Shown here piece after piece: positions 36,001-42,000 of a stretch of 42,529 bases of DNA (the first letter of the stretch is position 1; every line of letters starts with the position of its first letter). The DNA comes from a virus. Its lineage: Duplodnaviria > Heunggongvirae > Uroviricota > Caudoviricetes. Position numbers: made by a program. The DNA lies in IMG/VR virus record IMGVR_UViG_2718218227_000014, one strand, 5' to 3'.

Positions 36001-39000
36001 GACCGCAGTTAGCGCACGTTAAAGCCCGCTCGACGCTTTCTTGTTCGTAACTTCGATTTTGGTCAATCACCTTGTTTTCCTCGCACAATGTCTTAGCCAC
36101 CGGATATCCCACAGGTGAGCCGTGTAGTTGAAGGTTTTTACGTCAGATTCTTTTGGGATTGGCTTGCGTTTATTTCTGGAGCGTTTCGTTGGAAGGTATT
36201 TGCAGTTTTCGCAGATGATGTCGGTGAAACTTCGTCGCTGTCGTCTCATGCCGCCCTGTCTCCCCATCGCGCTTTCATGCCAGCGATGCGCAGTTCATCG
36301 CATTGTTGATCGTCGCCAACCAGTACGGCCTTAATCCGTGGACGAAAGAAATTTACGCCTTCCCTGATAAGCAGAACGGCATCGTTCCGGTGGTGGGCGT
36401 TGATGGCTGGTCCCGCATCATCAATGAAAACCAGCAGTTTGATGGCATGGACTTTGAGCAGGACAATGAATCCTGTACATGCCGGATTTACCGCAAGGAC
36501 CGTAATCATCCGATCTGCGTTACCGAATGGATGGATGAATGCCGCCGCGAACCATTCAAAACCCGCGAAGGCAGAGAAATCACGGGGCCGTGGCAGTCGC
36601 ATCCCAAACGGATGTTACGGCATAAAGCTATGATTCAGTGTGCCCGTCTGGCCTTCGGATTTGCTGGTATCTATGACAAGGATGAAGCCGAGCGCATTGT
36701 CGAAAATACTGCATACACTGCAGAACGCCAGCCGGAACGCGACATCACTCCGGTTAACGATGAAACCATGCAGGAGATTAACACTCTGCTAATCGCCCTG
36801 GATAAAACATGGGATGACGACTTATTGCCGCTCTGTTCCCAGATATTTCGCCGCGACATTCGCGCATCGTCAGAACTGACACAGGCCGAAGCAGTGAAAG
36901 CTCTTGGATTCCTGAAACAGAAAGCCACTGAGCAGAAGGTGGCAGCATGACACCGGACATTATCCTGCAGCGTACCGGGATCGACGTGAGAGCTGTCGAA
37001 CAGGGGGATGATGCATGGCACAAATTACGGCTCGGCGTCATCACCGCTTCAGAAGTTCACAACGTGATAGCAAAGCCCCGCTCAGGAAAGAAGTGGCCTG
37101 ACATGAAAATGTCCTACTTCCACACCCTGCTGGCTGAGGTTTGCACCGGTGTGGCTCCGGAAGTTAATGCTAAGGCGCTGGCCTGGGGAAAACAGTACGA
37201 GAACGACGCCAGAACCCTGTTTGAATTCACTTCCGGCGTGAATGTTACTGAATCCCCGATCATCTATCGCGACGAAAGTATGCGCACCGCCTGCTCTCCC
37301 GATGGTTTATGCAGTGACGGCAACGGCCTTGAGCTGAAATGCCCGTTTACCTCCCGGGATTTCATGAAGTTCAGGCTCGGTGGTTTCGAGGCCATAAAGT
37401 CGGCTTACATGGCCCAGGTGCAGTACAGCATGTGGGTGACGCGAAAAGATGCCTGGTACTTTGCCAACTATGACCCGCGTATGAAGCGTGAAGGCCTGCA
37501 TTATGTCGTGGTTGAGCGGGATGAAAAGTACATGGCGGGTTTTGACGAGATGGTGCCGGAGTTCATCGAAAAAATGGACGAGGCACTGGCTGAAATTGGT
37601 TTTGTATTTGGGGAGCAATGGCGATGAAGCATCCTCACGATAATATCCGCGTAGGCACGATCACTTTCGTCTACTCCGTTACGAAGCGAGGCTGGGTATT
37701 TCCCGGCCTTTCTGTTATCCGAAATCCGCTGAAAGCCCAGCGGCTGGCTGAGGAGATAAATAATAAACGGGAGGCGATATGCACAAAGCATCTCCTGTTG
37801 AGTTAAGAACGAGTATTGAGATGGCACATAGCCTTGCTCAAATTGGAGTCAGGTTTGTGCCAATACCAGTAGAAACAGACGAAGAATTTCATACGTTAGC
37901 CACATCCCTTTCGCAAAAGCTGGAAATGATGGTGGCGAAAGCAGAAGCAGATGAGAGAGACCTGGTATGACAACCACTGAATGCATTTTTCTGGCAGCGG
38001 GCTTCATATTCTGTGTGCTTATGCTTGCCGACATGGGACTTGTTCAATGACACCTCAGCAAGAAAACGCCCTTCGCAGTATTGCCCGTCAGGCTAATTCT
38101 GAAATCAAAAAAGCCAGACAGCCGTTTCCGGATAAAAACGTCGATGACATTTGCCGTAGCGTACTGAAGAAGCACCGCGAAACGGTAACGCTGATGGGAT
38201 TCACACCGACTCACTTAAGTCTGGCAATCGGCATGTTAAACGGCGTCTTTAAGGAACGGTGAACATGAAAAGCAAAATCATCAGGGAGCTACAGGCTCCT
38301 TTTTTATTATTCGCATTCACCCTCAAGCGTATTAACCAACAATTCAGGGATTAATGGAAGATGGCAGACATCATTGATTCAGCATCAGAAATTGAAGAAT
38401 TACAGCGCAACACAGCAATAAAAATGCGCCGCCTGAACCACCAGGCTATATCTGCCACTCATTGTTGTGAGTGTGGCGATCCCATAGATGAGCGAAGACG
38501 CCTGGCCGTTCAGGGTTGTCGGACTTGTGCAAGTTGCCAGGAGGATCTGGAACTTATCAGTAAACAGAGAGGTTCGAAGTGAGCGAAATTAACTAGAAGC
38601 CAAAGATAAAATCATCGCTGAGCAGGAGAAAATCGCTAACGGAGAAAAGACAGTAAGTCAGTATATGAAAACCGCATGATATCATCAGATAAAAATCGAT
38701 CGTAAAGCGAAATATTAATACCAGAATAAACGAGTCGAGGTAAATTATATTACCTCGATAAATTAACTAAAACTTGCCCGCTATATACTATCTCATTCAG
38801 TATCATCACGCGCGGTCTGTGCATATGTTACTACCGCACCTAATGTATTAATTTTCTTTTCAACATAGATAATATTATCGTACTCATAATTGCCATACGG
38901 ATAGCAAATGCGAATATTCTCATGTAGATCGGGGTCATCCACCTCAGCTCCAGAACAACTTTTTGAACTACCGGAAGTATACCGATACGGTGCAACATAA

Positions 39001-42000
39001 GACGATGTCTCTCCAGGCAAAAAATAAGTTAGTGTTGTAAGGGGTATAATCAGAAAAAATCCAGCAAATATGCACATCCCTGCATAAACCTTAAGGTATG
39101 CTGACAGACTCTTCCAGCCGCTTTGTTTTACTATCCCCTTCTTAACCCAAAACAGAGATAACAGAAAAGCTATTCCCATGCTAAACAGAATGTAATAGTG
39201 GGATATACTCTGATTAAGAAACGTGACCCTGTAAATATCTGCCCGCCACCAGAAGAAAAGGAAAATAAAGATCAGGCCTAAAACTGTCATGCAAATCAAA
39301 TAAGGATACGAATCTTTTTTCATGTTTAGCGCCCATAAAATTTTTCCTGCCCCGGACAAATTTACCATCCATTTTTTGCGCAGAAAATAGCTCATTACTT
39401 ACTGCACAATAATACACAAAATTGCGTAAATTTTTTGCATGGATTTTAGCTCTTTCAGCCGACGTTTAAGGGGTAAATAGCATTTCCTAAAAGCAACTGC
39501 ACCAACCCAACAGAATGAGCTACCGCTTACGTTGAGAGCAAAAAAGTGTATAGCAGCAATGAACAGCATCCTCGCACTGACGAGGATTTCTTTTATCTGA
39601 ACTCGCTACGGCGGGTTTTGTTTTATGGAGATGATAAATGCACTTCCGAGTCACAGGTGAATGGAATGGAGAACCATTCAACAGAGTTATCGAAGCAGAG
39701 AACATCAATGACTGCTATGACCACTGGATGATATGGGCGCAGATAGCACATGCAGACATAACCAATATTCGAATTGAAGAACTGAAAGAACACCAAGCCG
39801 CCTGATGGCGGCTTTTTCTTGCGTGTAATTGCGGAGACTTTGCGATGTACTTGACACTTCAGGAGTGGAACGCACGCCAGCGACGCCCAAGAAGCCTTGA
39901 AACAGTTCGTCGATGGGTGCGCGAATGCAGGATATTCCCTCCTCCGGTTAAGGATGGAAGAGAGTATCTGTTCCACGAATCAGCGGTAAAGGTTGACTTA
40001 AATCGACCAGTAACAGGTAGCCTTTTGAAGAGGATCAGAAATGGGAAGAAGGCGAAGTCATGAGCGCCGGGATTTACCCCCTAACCTTTATATAAGAAAC
40101 AATGGATATTACTGCTACAGGGACCCAAGGACGGGTAAAGAGTTTGGTTTAGGCCGAGACAGGAGGATAGCAATCACTGAAGCAATACAGGCCAATATTG
40201 AGTTATTTTCAGGACACAAACACAAGCCTCTGACAGCGAGAATCAACAGTGATAATTCTGTTACGTTACATTCATGGCTTGATCGCTACGAAAAAATCCT
40301 CGCCAGCAGAGGAATCAAGCAGAAGACACTCATAAATTACATGAGCAAAATTAAAGCAATAAGGAGGGGGCTGCCTGATGCTCCACTTGAAGACATCACC
40401 ACAAAAGAAATTGCGGCAATGCTCAATGGATACATAGACGAGGGCAAGGCGGCGTCAGCCAAGTTAATCAGATCAACACTGAGCGATGCATTCCGAGAGG
40501 CAATAGCTGAAGGCCATATAACAACAAACCCGGTCGCTGCCACTCGCGCAGCAAAATCAGAGGTAAGGAGATCAAGACTTACGGCTGACGAATACCTGAA
40601 AATTTATCAAGCAGCAGAATCATCACCATGTTGGCTCAGACTTGCAATGGAACTGGCTGTTGTTACCGGGCAGCGAGTTGGTGATTTATGCGAAATGAAG
40701 TGGTCTGATATCGTAGATGGATATCTTTATGTCGAACAAAGCAAAACAGGCGTAAAAATTGCCATCCCTACAACATTGCATGTTGATGCTCTCGGGATAT
40801 CAATGAAGGAAACACTTGATAAATGCAAAGAGATTCTTGGCGGAGAAACCATAATTGCATCTACTCGTCGTGAACCGCTTTCATCCGGCACAGTATCAAG
40901 GTATTTTATGCGCGCACGAAAAGCATCAGGTCTTTCCTTCGAAGGGGATCCGCCTACCTTTCACGAGTTGCGCAGTTTGTCTGCAAGACTCTATGAGAAG
41001 CAGATAAGCGATAAGTTTGCTCAACATCTTCTCGGGCATAAGTCGGACACCATGGCATCACAGTATCGTGATGACAGAGGCAGGGAGTGGGACAAAATTG
41101 AAATCAAATAATGATTTTATTTTGACTGATAGTGACCTGTTCGTTGCAACAAATTGATAAGCAATGCTTTTTTATAATGCCAACTTAGTATAAAAAAGCA
41201 GACTTCAACGGATTCATTTTTCTATTTCATAGCCCGGAGCAACCTGTGAACACATTTTCAGTTTCCCGTCTGGCGCTGGCATTGGCTTTTGGCGTGACGC
41301 TGACCGCCTGTAGCTCAACACCACCCGATCAACGTCCTTCTGATCAAACTGCGCCTGGTACCTCTTCTCGCCCGATTCTGTCGGCAAAAGAAGCGCAGAA
41401 TTTCGATGCTCAACACTATTTTGCATCCCTGACACCAGGTGCTGCAGCGTGGAATCCGTCCCCGATAACCCTGCCTGCGCAACCTGACTTTGTTGTCGGC
41501 CCGGCGGGTACTCAAGGTGTAACGCATACCACGATTCAGGCGGCGGTAGATGCGGCAATTATCAAGCGCACCAACAAGCGCCAGTATATTGCCGTGATGC
41601 CTGGTGAGTATCAGGGAACGGTGTATGTCCCTGCTGCTCCAGGTGGAATTACTCTGTACGGTACAGGTGAAAAACCGATTGATGTGAAGATTGGGCTTTC
41701 CCTTGATGGGGGCATGAGCCCTGCCGACTGGCGTCACGACGTCAACCCGCGCGGCAAATATATGCCAGGTAAACCAGCGTGGTATATGTACGATAGCTGC
41801 CAGAGCAAACGCAGCGACAGTATCGGTGTTCTGTGTTCTGCGGTCTTCTGGTCACAAAACAATGGCCTGCAACTGCAAAACCTGACCATCGAAAACACGC
41901 TGGGTGATAGCGTAGATGCGGGTAACCATCCGGCGGTGGCACTGCGTACTGACGGTGACCAGGTACAGATTAACAACGTTAACATTCTCGGTCGTCAGAA

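What the first reader, a model, noticed from the sequence alone, without database searches (positions are those of the whole stretch)
38583..39637. Opposite-strand membrane-protein moron in the early-left region, flanked by hairpins
Between the TraR-like gene and orf55/xis, where lambda carries ea22/ea8.5, there is an AT-rich 200-aa membrane protein on the opposite strand (38793..39395). A perfect 9-bp inverted repeat sits downstream of it (TCGAGGTAA...TTACCTCGA at about 38735..38765) and a plus-strand hairpin plus T-tract upstream (ATCCTCG-CACTGAC-GAGGAT TTCTTTTAT at about 39557..39590). An insulated, independently transcribed membrane protein in this slot is a plausible superinfection-exclusion or abortive-infection candidate with no recognisable family.
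Basis: partly seen in the sequence, partly recalled or inferred. Interest (0 to 1): 0.65.

Follow-up and report, generated by a model that had tools for sequence, protein, structure and literature searches.

The report
Prophage membrane-protein cassette of unknown function
The gene is real: a self-contained cassette for a small inner-membrane protein with a periplasmic domain. It sits in phage 434 and E. coli O157 prophages, was picked up from the defence-gene hotspot of P2-like phages, is a plausible phage-exclusion gene, and has never been tested.

Summary

**The gene.** It is real and under purifying selection (dN/dS 0.08-0.15). The conserved start is ATG 39323, giving 176 aa rather than 200. 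The extra 24 codons overlap a conserved extended -10 box, TGGTAAATT.

**The hairpins.**
- The 9-bp inverted repeat downstream is the cassette's own terminator-like hairpin.
- The upstream plus-strand hairpin is the lambdoid backbone terminator tL4 of phage 434. It is not part of the insert.

**Where it occurs.** The window is an O157:H7 Sp3-type prophage whose 38583-39637 region is 99.8% identical to phage 434.

**The protein.** It has three TM helices and a about 70-aa beta-barrel with two invariant cysteines, inferred to be periplasmic. It has no Pfam, NCBIfam, PADLOC, PDB or viral fold relative.

**The family.** It is already catalogued. It matches PHROG 1416 and the untested "system #4, 3 TM" (470 occurrences) of the P2 gpQ-gpA anti-phage hotspot in Rousset 2022.

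**Origin.** The block 38592-39546 is collinear with that hotspot. It carries P2 backbone from both sides of a deleted cos site and an ea22-like remnant, so it was captured from a P2-like phage.

**Function.** This is inferred only. Envelope-level superinfection exclusion is most likely (about 0.4). A non-defence envelope role is a serious rival, because chromosomal orthologues exist.

The parts
38592..39546 (-). Whole captured block, collinear with the cos-proximal hotspot of E. coli P2-like prophages. In order: Q-cos spacer remnant, deleted cos, repeats, promoter, gene, terminator, ea22-like remnant.
   Evidence: blastn: window 39460..38686 matches L013 5864..6636 at 75.8% over 778 nt. Window 39546..39456 matches the Q-cos spacer of three P2-like prophages, score 46-51 against a shuffle maximum of 29. 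The ea22-like remnant is shown. Lambdoid backbone homology resumes at 39542.
38793..39323 (-). Most likely CDS: 176 aa plus stop. An inner-membrane protein with 3 TM helices and a C-terminal beta-barrel that has two invariant Cys. Known as ECs_0804 in Sakai, WP_000120056.1, and CPT_434_36 in phage 434.
   Evidence: All homologues start at this Met. In-frame stops lie upstream of it in the other loci, and dN/dS is 0.08-0.15. AF2 model pLDDT 86.9. Hydropathy. Locus tags.
39324..39395 (-). Probably untranslated, because it holds the promoter and 5'UTR.
   Evidence: The extension is open only in the 434-type sequence. It contains the conserved -10 element.
39359..39367 (-). Extended -10-like element TGGTAAATT. 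The predicted transcription start is near 39350.
   Evidence: TGnTAAnTT sits at -44 to -48 from the start codon in 8 of 20 non-redundant loci. These include P2-type prophages and the chromosomal Cedecea and Citrobacter copies. As a bare pattern in the window it is no more frequent than chance. No transcript mapping is available.
39403..39437 (-). A-tract plus three degenerate 10-bp-phased repeats: TTTACGCA, TTGTGTA, TTGTGCA. They derive from the P2-like backbone. Two of them form the 'CII box' annotated in phage 434.
   Evidence: Repeats lie at -106/-96/-86 in P2-type loci. They are also present in a P2-like prophage with different cargo, L114. P2-backbone homology ends right after repeat 3. 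TTGY-N6-TTGY occurs 6 times in the window against 9.5 expected.
39456..39546 (-). Remnant of the P2-like spacer between portal gene Q and cos. The cos core (about 85 bp) that follows it in P2-like prophages is deleted here; the junction is near 39456.
   Evidence: Local alignments to L114, L013 and L118. The missing segment begins with the cos-like GCTGTTCCCCCGTCACC, which matches the P2 cosR reverse complement at 19 of 25 aligned positions (score 16, not tested against shuffles). The alignment gap is visible.
38726..38759 (-). The cassette's own terminator-like hairpin: 9-bp stem, 6-nt loop, then CTCGTTTATT.
   Evidence: Fold -13.5 kcal/mol, z = -2.7. The hairpin is retained in P2-type loci L013 and L097, with an A-T to G-C compensatory change (read from the alignment).
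38592..38679 (+). Remnant of an ead/Ea22-like gene, convergent with the membrane gene. The P2-like hotspot has the same arrangement.
   Evidence: 34 of 44 nt identical to the ead/Ea22-like pseudogene next to the gene in L117. Score 38 against a shuffle mean of 16.5 and maximum of 28, 0 of 500 shuffles reaching it. tblastn finds 73% identity over 15 aa. Annotations.
39568..39596 (+). Hairpin plus T-tract: terminator tL4 of the lambdoid leftward operon. Backbone, not cassette.
   Evidence: Annotated as t-L4 in M60848. Found by the scan. The region 39568-39637 is conserved in lambda(DE3) and many lambdoid prophages.
39599..39628 (+). Second plus-strand terminator-like hairpin (8-bp stem) plus TTTTGTTTTAT, just upstream of orf55. 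Backbone.
   Evidence: Fold -13.3 kcal/mol, z = -3.3, 0 of 200 shuffles as stable.
39399..39569 (-). 56-aa ORF annotated in phage 434 as 'putative membrane protein' (CPT_434_35). Probably not a gene.
   Evidence: It spans the cos-deletion junction and the P2-derived non-coding spacer. PGAP does not call it.

Best explanation
**Shown.**
- A 0.95-kb accessory cassette sits in the early-left region of this O157:H7 Sp3-type prophage. It is essentially identical to the one in phage 434.
- It was captured from the cos-proximal gpQ-gpA hotspot of a P2-like phage.
- It carries a conserved extended -10 promoter-like element, a 176-aa gene under purifying selection, and a terminator-like hairpin.
- The product has three TM helices and a about 70-residue five-stranded beta-barrel. 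Two cysteines are invariant across the family.

**Inferred.**
- Topology is N-in, C-out. The beta-barrel and the short conserved loop 1 face the periplasm and form the functional surface. The two cysteines form a disulfide.
- The gene is expressed from the prophage by its own promoter.
- It acts as a lysogenic-conversion gene that excludes superinfecting phages at the envelope. Most likely it interferes, from the periplasmic face of the inner membrane, with genome entry. The target could be an incoming tail or ejection protein, or a conserved host entry factor. It is less likely to work by killing the cell.
For: **Anatomy**
- The region is 100% identical to many O157:H7 genomes and 99.8% identical to phage 434.
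- Purifying selection and the conserved start are shown.
- The AF2 model has pLDDT 86.9 with helices 5-29, 38-61 and 70-101 and a beta domain at 105-171. The domain alone gives pLDDT 91.7.
- There are three hydrophobic segments.
- K/R residues cluster at the N-terminus and in loop 2. The C-terminal domain has more acidic residues (9 D+E, 5 K+R).
- Across 40 diverse members the only invariant columns are the two Cys.
- Conservation is highest in the predicted periplasmic loop (0.61) and the C-domain (0.59). It is lowest in TM2, TM3 and the cytoplasmic loop (0.34-0.37).

**Own expression signals**
- The conserved -10 element is shown. The hairpin is shown.
- In this prophage bet is truncated and abuts inverted nin genes. 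Readthrough from a normal pL operon is therefore not available.

**Defence association**
- Homologues from E. coli (78%), Salmonella (70% and 59%) and Klebsiella (55%) lie between portal gpQ and gpA of P2-like prophages.
- This is the old/tin locus, described as an anti-phage hotspot in PMC9122126.
- The family is that paper's system #4, with 470 occurrences.
- Capture from P2 is shown.
Against: - No experimental data exist for any family member. It is absent from the tested constructs in Rousset 2022, and no literature was found.
- There is no similarity to any known exclusion or defence protein. PADLOC gives nothing. PHROG gives only the unknown-function family 1416. SieA hhalign probability is 0.2%.
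- The P2 hotspot also carries non-defence cargo such as partition genes and toxins. Only 3 of 8 additional cloned systems gave protection there.
- Family members at 33-57% identity are chromosomal or megaplasmid genes at non-phage loci. In Enterobacter the gene starts 16 nt downstream of a same-strand LysR gene. This fits a housekeeping envelope role at least as well.
- A strongly conserved periplasmic domain is not what is usually seen for proteins in an arms race with diverse phage proteins.
- Topology rests on hydropathy, the positive-inside rule, the AF2 model and the Cys pair. No dedicated predictor or experiment was used.
- No Shine-Dalgarno sequence precedes the conserved ATG in the E. 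coli copies.
Confidence: 0.4

Rival explanations
1. The protein is a lysogenic-conversion or housekeeping envelope protein with no anti-phage role. Its periplasmic domain would bind a conserved host envelope component, with a role in stress tolerance, transport modulation or cell-wall metabolism. Phages would carry it because it improves lysogen fitness, as lambda bor and lom do.
For: - Chromosomal orthologues sit at fixed non-phage loci in several Enterobacter species, where the gene starts 16 nt downstream of a same-strand LysR gene. Others are in Klebsiella sp., Cedecea, Citrobacter and Pseudescherichia, next to ptsG in Serratia, and on Pantoea megaplasmids.
- The periplasmic face is strongly conserved across genera.
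- The P2 hotspot is known to hold non-defence cargo.
- There is no hit in defence-protein libraries.
Against: - In E. coli, Salmonella and Klebsiella the gene is overwhelmingly prophage cargo at a hotspot enriched for defence.
- The chromosomal neighbourhoods share nothing, so they point to no common pathway.
- The gene moves as a single-gene cassette between unrelated phage types.
Confidence: 0.3
2. The protein is an abortive-infection membrane effector. It would sense infection and depolarise or permeabilise the inner membrane, killing the cell before phage release, as lambda RexB and SieB-type proteins do.
For: - It is a single small multi-TM protein in a defence hotspot.
- Transmembrane proteins in known systems are often suicide effectors (discussion in PMC9122126).
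- The weak translation signals (no SD) would suit a potentially toxic protein.
Against: - The most conserved parts face the periplasm, while the TM helices are the least conserved. This fits a binding domain better than a pore.
- There is no partner sensor gene. The gene stands alone in most loci.
- There is no SieB Pfam hit and no PADLOC hit.
- Stable chromosomal orthologues argue against intrinsic toxicity.
Confidence: 0.12
3. The protein gives immunity or entry exclusion against something other than phage: an orphan immunity protein against a membrane- or periplasm-acting bacteriocin or T6SS/CDI toxin, or a block on conjugative DNA entry.
For: - Its size and three-TM architecture resemble pore-forming colicin immunity proteins and TraS/Eex-type exclusion proteins (from general knowledge, not tested here).
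- Orphan single-gene distribution across chromosomes, prophages and megaplasmids.
Against: - No toxin gene is adjacent in any locus examined.
- It was not found on colicin or conjugative plasmids. The plasmid hits are Pantoea megaplasmids plus one Serratia record typed as a plasmid whose gene neighbourhood (mltG, tmk, holB, ptsG) looks chromosomal.
- There is no Pfam or NCBIfam immunity family hit.
Confidence: 0.08
4. The ORF is a non-functional relic, and the hairpins are coincidental.
For: The prophage in the window is defective (bet is truncated). There is no SD before the start codon.
Against: - dN/dS is 0.08-0.15.
- The ORF is intact and 96-100% identical in 905 of 5426 complete E. coli genomes and in the viable phages 434, 2B8 and mEp332.
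- The AF2 model is confident.
Confidence: 0.02

Closest known systems
P2-hotspot 'system #4' (no Pfam, single protein, 3 TM, 470 occurrences) in Rousset et al. 2022, Table S5B; also PHROG 1416 (unknown function)
   Same: It is homologous over the full length: 51% identity, E = 3e-56. The architecture and size are the same. The window's cassette also carries P2-hotspot flanking DNA. PHROG 1416 matches residues 113-200 at E = 2e-50.
   Different: The window copy sits in a lambdoid prophage, not in a P2-like one. The catalogued family has no assigned or tested function.
P22 SieA superinfection exclusion protein (PMC10883804)
   Same: Both are prophage-expressed inner-membrane proteins of about 160-176 aa with three predicted TM helices. 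Both are single genes with their own promoter, transcribed against the neighbouring operon.
   Different: No sequence relationship: hhalign probability 0.2%. SieA's conserved motif FxRYPxEAxxFNK is cytoplasmic and is absent here. SieA lacks a disulfide-bonded periplasmic beta-barrel. SieA is confined to the slot between genes 16 and 9 of P22-like phages.
P2 old/tin exclusion genes
   Same: They occupy the same locus in P2-like genomes, as first cargo after cos, transcribed from cos toward gpA. Three about 10-bp-phased direct repeats lie upstream of the promoter in both.
   Different: Old is a cytoplasmic ATPase/nuclease and Tin is soluble. There is no homology. The mechanism here, if it is exclusion, would act at the envelope.
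HK97 gp15, T4 Imm/Sp, lactococcal Sie2009-type injection blockers (from general knowledge)
   Same: They are small membrane-anchored moron products whose extracytoplasmic part blocks genome entry. This is the mechanism proposed here.
   Different: The only PHROG hit at E up to 1 is family 1416, so no annotated exclusion family matches. The fold and topology differ. Function here is untested.
Lambdoid 'moron' elements (lambda bor/lom, HK97 morons)
   Same: A foreign-composition insert between conserved genes, with its own promoter-like and terminator-like signals, absent from sister phages at the same place.
   Different: Here the donor can be identified as a P2-like cos-proximal hotspot, from remnants of donor backbone.
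NfeD-like proteins (TM helices plus C-terminal OB-fold)
   Same: A superficial match in architecture: N-terminal TM helices followed by a small five-stranded barrel.

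Membership tests
Rousset 2022 P2-hotspot system #4 / PHROG 1416 family | Full-length sequence homology to the catalogued representative | tested here: met
   BLASTP gives 51% identity over 168 aa, E = 3e-56. PHROG 1416 matches at E = 2e-50.
Rousset 2022 P2-hotspot system #4 / PHROG 1416 family | Single protein of about 170-180 aa with 3 TM helices | tested here: met
   AF2 helices at 5-29, 38-61 and 70-101. Three hydropathy peaks. All full-length relatives are 166-189 aa.
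Rousset 2022 P2-hotspot system #4 / PHROG 1416 family | Location between gpQ and gpA of a P2-like prophage | tested here: not met
   The window copy lies between the TraR-like gene and orf55/xis of a lambdoid prophage. It does carry P2 backbone remnants, and close relatives do sit in the hotspot.
P22 SieA family | Sequence or profile homology to SieA, including the motif FxRYPxEAxxFNK | tested here: not met
   hhalign probability 0.2%. The motif is absent from the sequence.
P22 SieA family | [quoted passage not shown] | not testable with these tools
   Needs fractionation and K+ efflux or DNA-entry assays.
SieB (Pfam PF14163) / other Pfam or NCBIfam families | Profile match above threshold | tested here: not met
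   The only Pfam hit is DUF6057 at E = 0.32, below the cut-off. NCBIfam gives none.
Known anti-phage defence systems (PADLOC-DB v2.0.0) | Match to any defence-protein model | tested here: not met
   0 families at E up to 1.
Annotated superinfection-exclusion PHROGs (gp15, Imm, Cor and others) | Match to a PHROG with an exclusion annotation | tested here: not met
   The only PHROG hit at E up to 1 is family 1416, of unknown function.
Moron (autonomous insert in a lambdoid genome) | Composition distinct from the flanks, and absent from sister phages at the same site | tested here: met
   GC 0.35-0.39 against 0.45-0.55. Most lambdoid phages and prophages match only 39542-39637.
Moron (autonomous insert in a lambdoid genome) | Own promoter and own terminator | tested here: inconclusive
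   A conserved extended -10-like box lies at -44 to -48 in 8 of 20 loci. A conserved hairpin lies after the stop codon. No transcript ends have been mapped. The generic promoter scan did not flag the box.
Rho-independent terminator tL4 of lambdoid pL operon (upstream hairpin) | GC-containing stem-loop plus T-tract on the pL-sense strand, at the annotated position | tested here: met
   The scan finds it at 39568-39587 followed by TTTCTTTTAT. It is annotated as t-L4 in M60848. It is conserved in lambda-type backbones. Termination activity was not tested.
Lambda CII-activated promoter (as annotated in phage 434 record) | Specific TTGC-N6-TTGC box placed around -35 of a weak promoter | tested here: inconclusive
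   The site is TTGTGTATTATTGT at 39406-39419. The loose pattern occurs 6 times in the window against 9.5 expected by chance. The repeats are inherited from the P2-like backbone.
NfeD-like (PF01957) | Pfam match and a cytoplasmic OB domain | tested here: not met
   No Pfam hit. The invariant Cys pair and the charge distribution indicate a periplasmic domain.

The most novel reading that the evidence does not exclude
The family is a new, widespread class of single-gene anti-phage exclusion proteins that act from the periplasm. A disulfide-bonded OB-like domain on a three-helix anchor would block genome entry by engaging a conserved host entry factor at the inner membrane. One weak lead is a PTS permease of the ManYZ/PtsG kind, because two of the eight chromosomal or megaplasmid contexts examined lie next to PTS EIIBC genes. 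The cassette would shuttle between P2-like cos hotspots, lambdoid early regions and chromosomes.
Probability: 0.25. Interest if true: 0.65.

Novelty: new member of a known kind. Interest (0 to 1): 0.42.

Why it matters
The cassette is common. It is present in 905 of 5426 complete E. coli genomes, in classical phage 434, and in O157:H7 prophage Sp3. Together with its relatives it is the fourth most frequent cargo of the P2 defence hotspot. Even so, no function has been tested.

If it excludes phages at the envelope, it would add a new protein family to a class with few characterised mechanisms. It would also affect phage-therapy host-range prediction for E. coli, Salmonella and Klebsiella.

Separately, the locus gives a concrete and directional example of exchange between phage types. 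A hotspot cassette moved from a P2-like phage into a lambdoid phage, with donor backbone and a deleted cos site still visible. Recent work says the direction and mechanism of such exchanges are hard to establish (PMC13586616).

Tried and rejected
**Sequence searches that found nothing useful**
- Pfam, NCBIfam and PADLOC scans gave nothing usable.
- A PDB sequence search with the family profile gave nothing below E = 0.38.
- Rfam on 38300-39900 gave nothing relevant.

**Fold searches**
- Foldseek against viral structures found nothing at E up to 0.001.
- The afdb50 library was unavailable.

**Ideas tested and dropped**
- SieA homology: rejected.
- A 3074-aa protein hit in the exhaustive search (P0124): the weak local match at three stretches falls in a protein of long near-identical tandem repeats, which I judged spurious by eye.
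- The idea that the 112-aa form (P0131, on 1000 or more contigs) marks widespread truncation: complete genomes mostly carry the full 531-nt gene, so it is likely an alternative GTG start call.
- The CII-box annotation as evidence of CII control: the pattern is no more frequent than chance, and it is inherited from P2 backbone.
- Alignment of the tL4 hairpin to a P2 hairpin in the MAFFT alignment: rejected, because that segment belongs to lambdoid backbone.

**Literature**
- Searches by accession, locus tag and phage name found no functional study.
- The supplements of PMC13586616 are not held.

Full report
**Where the window comes from.** The 1055-bp region is 100% identical to many E. coli O157:H7 chromosomes and 99.8% identical to phage 434. 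It is also close to phages 2B8 and mEp332. The neighbourhood is exo, orf60a and orf63 homologues, a TraR/DksA-like gene, the reverse-strand ORF, orf55, xis, int, then ybhC. This is the lambda attachment site. In strain Sakai the element is annotated as prophage Sp3 and the gene as ECs_0804. PGAP calls the product WP_000120056.1, 'hypothetical protein'. The phage 434 annotators call it 'putative membrane protein', and the genome announcement says nothing about function. In this prophage bet is truncated and abuts inverted ninE-ninG genes. The normal pL operon context is therefore broken.

**Checking the observation.** The 200-aa ORF at 38793..39395 (-) exists. GC falls to 0.35-0.39 across it, against 0.45-0.55 in the flanks. 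The perfect 9-bp inverted repeat is at 38736-38744 / 38751-38759. On the gene's strand it is followed by CTCGTTTATT, and it folds at -13.5 kcal/mol, z = -2.7. The plus-strand hairpin is at 39568-39587, followed by TTTCTTTTAT. A second, stronger plus-strand hairpin with a T-tract lies at 39599-39618 (z = -3.3).

**The gene is real but shorter than the ORF.**
- A search of 5.8 billion proteins found 74 related clusters. An exhaustive profile search found 61 clusters at 50% identity, almost all 166-189 aa with the same layout.
- Every homologue begins at the Met that is residue 25 of the window ORF, with the sequence MKKDSYPYL.
- In seven other loci an in-frame stop lies 4-18 codons upstream of that ATG, with no alternative start.
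- dN/dS against homologues at 59-78% identity is 0.08-0.15.
- The CDS is therefore most likely 38793-39323, 176 aa.

**The promoter sits in the 'extra' codons.** An extended -10-like box, TGGTAAATT, lies at 39359-39367. It recurs at -44 to -48 from the start codon in 8 of 20 non-redundant loci, including the chromosomal Cedecea and Citrobacter copies. As a bare pattern it is not rare in the window. The argument rests on positional conservation, not on the pattern. No transcript has been mapped.

**The protein.**
- AlphaFold2 with a 20-sequence alignment gives pLDDT 86.9. It shows helices at 5-29, 38-61 and 70-101, a short strand in loop 1, and a five-stranded beta domain at 105-171. The domain alone gives pLDDT 91.7.
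- Hydropathy shows three TM segments.
- K/R residues cluster at the N-terminus and in the TM2-TM3 loop. The C-domain has more acidic residues (9 D+E, 5 K+R).
- Across 40 diverse members the only invariant columns are two cysteines in adjacent strands of the C-domain.
- Conservation is highest in loop 1 (0.61) and the C-domain (0.59). It is lowest in TM2, TM3 and the cytoplasmic loop (0.34-0.37).
- From this I infer an N-in, C-out topology with a disulfide-bonded periplasmic barrel as the working surface. That is an inference. No dedicated topology predictor or experiment was available.

**The family is already catalogued.** PHROG 1416 (unknown function) matches the C-terminal 88 residues at E = 2e-50. 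Table S5B of Rousset et al. 2022 lists 'system #4' of the P2 gpA-gpQ hotspot as no Pfam, one protein, '3 TM', 470 occurrences. Its sequence is 51% identical to the window protein, E = 3e-56. It appears only in that catalogue and not among the cloned and tested systems held in the supplements. That paper describes the locus as the old/tin position, adjacent to cos and rich in anti-phage systems. It also holds partition genes and toxins, and only 3 of 8 extra cloned systems protected against the phage panel.

**Genomic contexts of relatives.**
- *P2-like hotspot.* E. coli (78% identity), Salmonella (70% and 59%) and Klebsiella (55%) copies lie between portal gpQ and replication gene gpA of P2-like prophages. 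They are transcribed away from cos, as old is in P2.
- *Non-phage loci.* More distant members (33-57%) sit elsewhere. In several Enterobacter species the gene starts 16 nt downstream of a same-strand LysR gene. In a Klebsiella species it lies next to a bgl PTS operon. In Cedecea and Citrobacter it lies near two-component-system (rstB-type sensor kinase) genes. In Serratia it lies right after ptsG. It is also found in Pseudescherichia and on Pantoea megaplasmids. These neighbourhoods share nothing.

**Origin of the cassette.**
- blastn aligns window 39460..38686 with an E. coli P2-like hotspot (L013 5864..6636) at 75.8% over 778 nt. This covers an A-tract, three 10-bp-phased TGTGCA repeats, the -10 box, the gene and the terminator hairpin.
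- The hairpin is kept in the P2-type copies, with an A-T to G-C compensatory change.
- Further upstream, window 39546..39456 matches the spacer between portal gene Q and cos in three P2-like prophages. Two of these carry different cargo. The score is 46-51 against a shuffle maximum of 29.
- The about 85 bp between these two blocks in P2-like phages begins with a cos-like sequence and is missing from the window.
- The TGTGCA repeats belong to P2-like backbone. They occur with unrelated cargo (L114), and backbone homology to the P2-like prophages of about 1200 E. coli genomes stops right after repeat 3. P2 itself has three ATGCA repeats upstream of the mapped old-tin transcript starts.
- Downstream of the gene, window 38592-38635 matches the ead/Ea22-like pseudogene that abuts the gene in the P2-like hotspot, in the same convergent arrangement. 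The match is 34 of 44 nt, with 0 of 500 shuffles as good. An intact ea22-like gene occupies that hotspot where the membrane gene is absent.
- Lambdoid backbone resumes at about 39542.
- So the whole 38592-39546 block is collinear with a P2-like hotspot and contains donor backbone. This sets the direction of transfer as P2-like to lambdoid. Two short similar sequences flank cos in the P2-like donor (ACGCGGGCTG and ACGGGGGCCGG). A deletion between them would give the window junction (read; inference).

- The downstream inverted repeat is part of the cassette.
- The upstream hairpin is the tL4 terminator annotated in the 1991 phage 434 record. With the second hairpin, it is conserved in lambda-type backbones that lack the insert. 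It ends leftward early transcription after that transcription has crossed the cassette in antisense. It is not a moron boundary.
- The 56-aa ORF annotated upstream in 434 (39399-39569) spans the cos-deletion junction and P2 non-coding spacer. It is probably not a gene.
- The 'CII binding site' annotated there is two of the inherited repeats. The loose TTGY-N6-TTGY pattern occurs 6 times in the window against 9.5 expected.

**What it most likely does.** The shown facts are these: it is a conserved, mobile, single-gene cassette; it has its own signals; it encodes a small membrane protein whose most conserved parts are extracytoplasmic; and it travels in positions used for lysogenic conversion and defence. 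From these I infer an envelope-level exclusion function that blocks genome entry from the periplasmic side of the inner membrane (about 0.4).

The main rival is a non-defence envelope role that phages borrowed (about 0.3). It is favoured by the chromosomal orthologues and by the unusually conserved periplasmic domain. Abortive infection (about 0.12), immunity to non-phage toxins or conjugation (about 0.08) and a dead relic (about 0.02) follow.

Two of the eight chromosomal or megaplasmid contexts examined lie beside PTS EIIBC genes, ptsG in Serratia and a bgl operon in Klebsiella. PTS permeases are known entry factors for lambda-like phages (general knowledge). This is a post-hoc lead, not evidence.

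**Novelty and verdict.** The gene and its family are known as sequences but uncharacterised. The kind of element, a prophage moron for a membrane protein at a defence hotspot, is familiar. The new points here are the corrected gene model, the structural description, the link between the phage 434/O157 gene and the P2-hotspot family, and the evidence for directional capture from a P2-like phage. The cassette is common: 905 of 5426 complete E. coli genomes carry the 434-type and 77 carry the P2-type, with 470 hotspot occurrences of the #4 type. It is also easy to test. Interest is moderate.

Noticed in passing
window 39403-39437 (-); L013 about 5895-5928; L114 about 2920-2955; P2 (L113) about 4451-4480: P2-like prophages carry an A-tract followed by two to four 10-bp-phased direct repeats (ATTGTGCAnn) between cos and the first hotspot gene, whatever the cargo. 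P2 has three analogous (A)ATGCA repeats just upstream of the mapped old-tin transcript starts. They could be a regulator-binding or packaging-related array (Cox-box-like?). Their function is unknown.
   Followed up: partly
window 39599-39628 (+): A second plus-strand terminator-like hairpin plus T-tract lies immediately after tL4 and just before orf55. It is more stable than tL4 (-13.3 kcal/mol, z = -3.3). The two form a tandem terminator pair.
   Followed up: partly
window 38592-38679 (+): A short remnant of an ead/Ea22-like gene lies between the TraR-like stop codon and the cassette. Intact ead/Ea22-like genes also occur inside P2-like cos-proximal hotspots (L118). This gives a patch of homology between lambdoid early regions and P2 hotspots.
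   Followed up: partly
window 39399-39569 (-): The 56-aa ORF annotated in phage 434 as a 'putative membrane protein' (CPT_434_35) overlies the P2-derived spacer and the cos-deletion junction. PGAP does not call it. It is likely an annotation artefact.
   Followed up: partly
window about 36246-36950: bet lacks its N-terminus and abuts nin genes (NinE/NinF/NinG) on the opposite strand, per the RefSeq annotation of the identical TR01 region. The prophage is rearranged, and the immunity/pL region is not in its normal place.
   Followed up: no
window 39312-39323 (-) compared with L004, L014, L017, L019, L023: The E. coli 434-type and P2-type copies have no Shine-Dalgarno sequence before the conserved ATG (GCGCTAAACATG). 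The Salmonella, Klebsiella, Cedecea and Citrobacter copies have AGGA/AAGG 2-3 nt upstream. A TCTGAAT-like motif recurs in the 5'UTR of several loci.
   Followed up: no
L119 (Serratia contig) 3333-5510; L010 (Klebsiella sp.) 2882-5543: Two independent chromosomal family members lie directly beside PTS EIIBC permease genes, ptsG and a bglF-like gene. This may be coincidence. It may be a hint toward PTS permeases, which are phage DNA-entry factors.
   Followed up: no
L022 (JARKOR010000073.1, 'Candidatus Nanosynbacter' MAG): A 3.5-kb contig binned to a Saccharibacteria MAG carries a 98%-identical copy of this E. coli prophage gene. It is almost certainly a mis-binned Enterobacteriaceae contig.
   Followed up: no
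L019-L021 (Klebsiella P2-like hotspot) 2281-5623: In the Klebsiella hotspot the gene sits beside a 790-aa AAA_16-type ATPase and a 279-aa protein with no Pfam hit. These may form a separate defence system.
   Followed up: no
window 39795-39832: A GC-rich bidirectional hairpin (39795-39814) is followed by TTGCGTGTAATTGC (39819-39832). These correspond to the t'I terminator and the CII-dependent pI promoter box annotated upstream of xis in phage 434.
   Followed up: no
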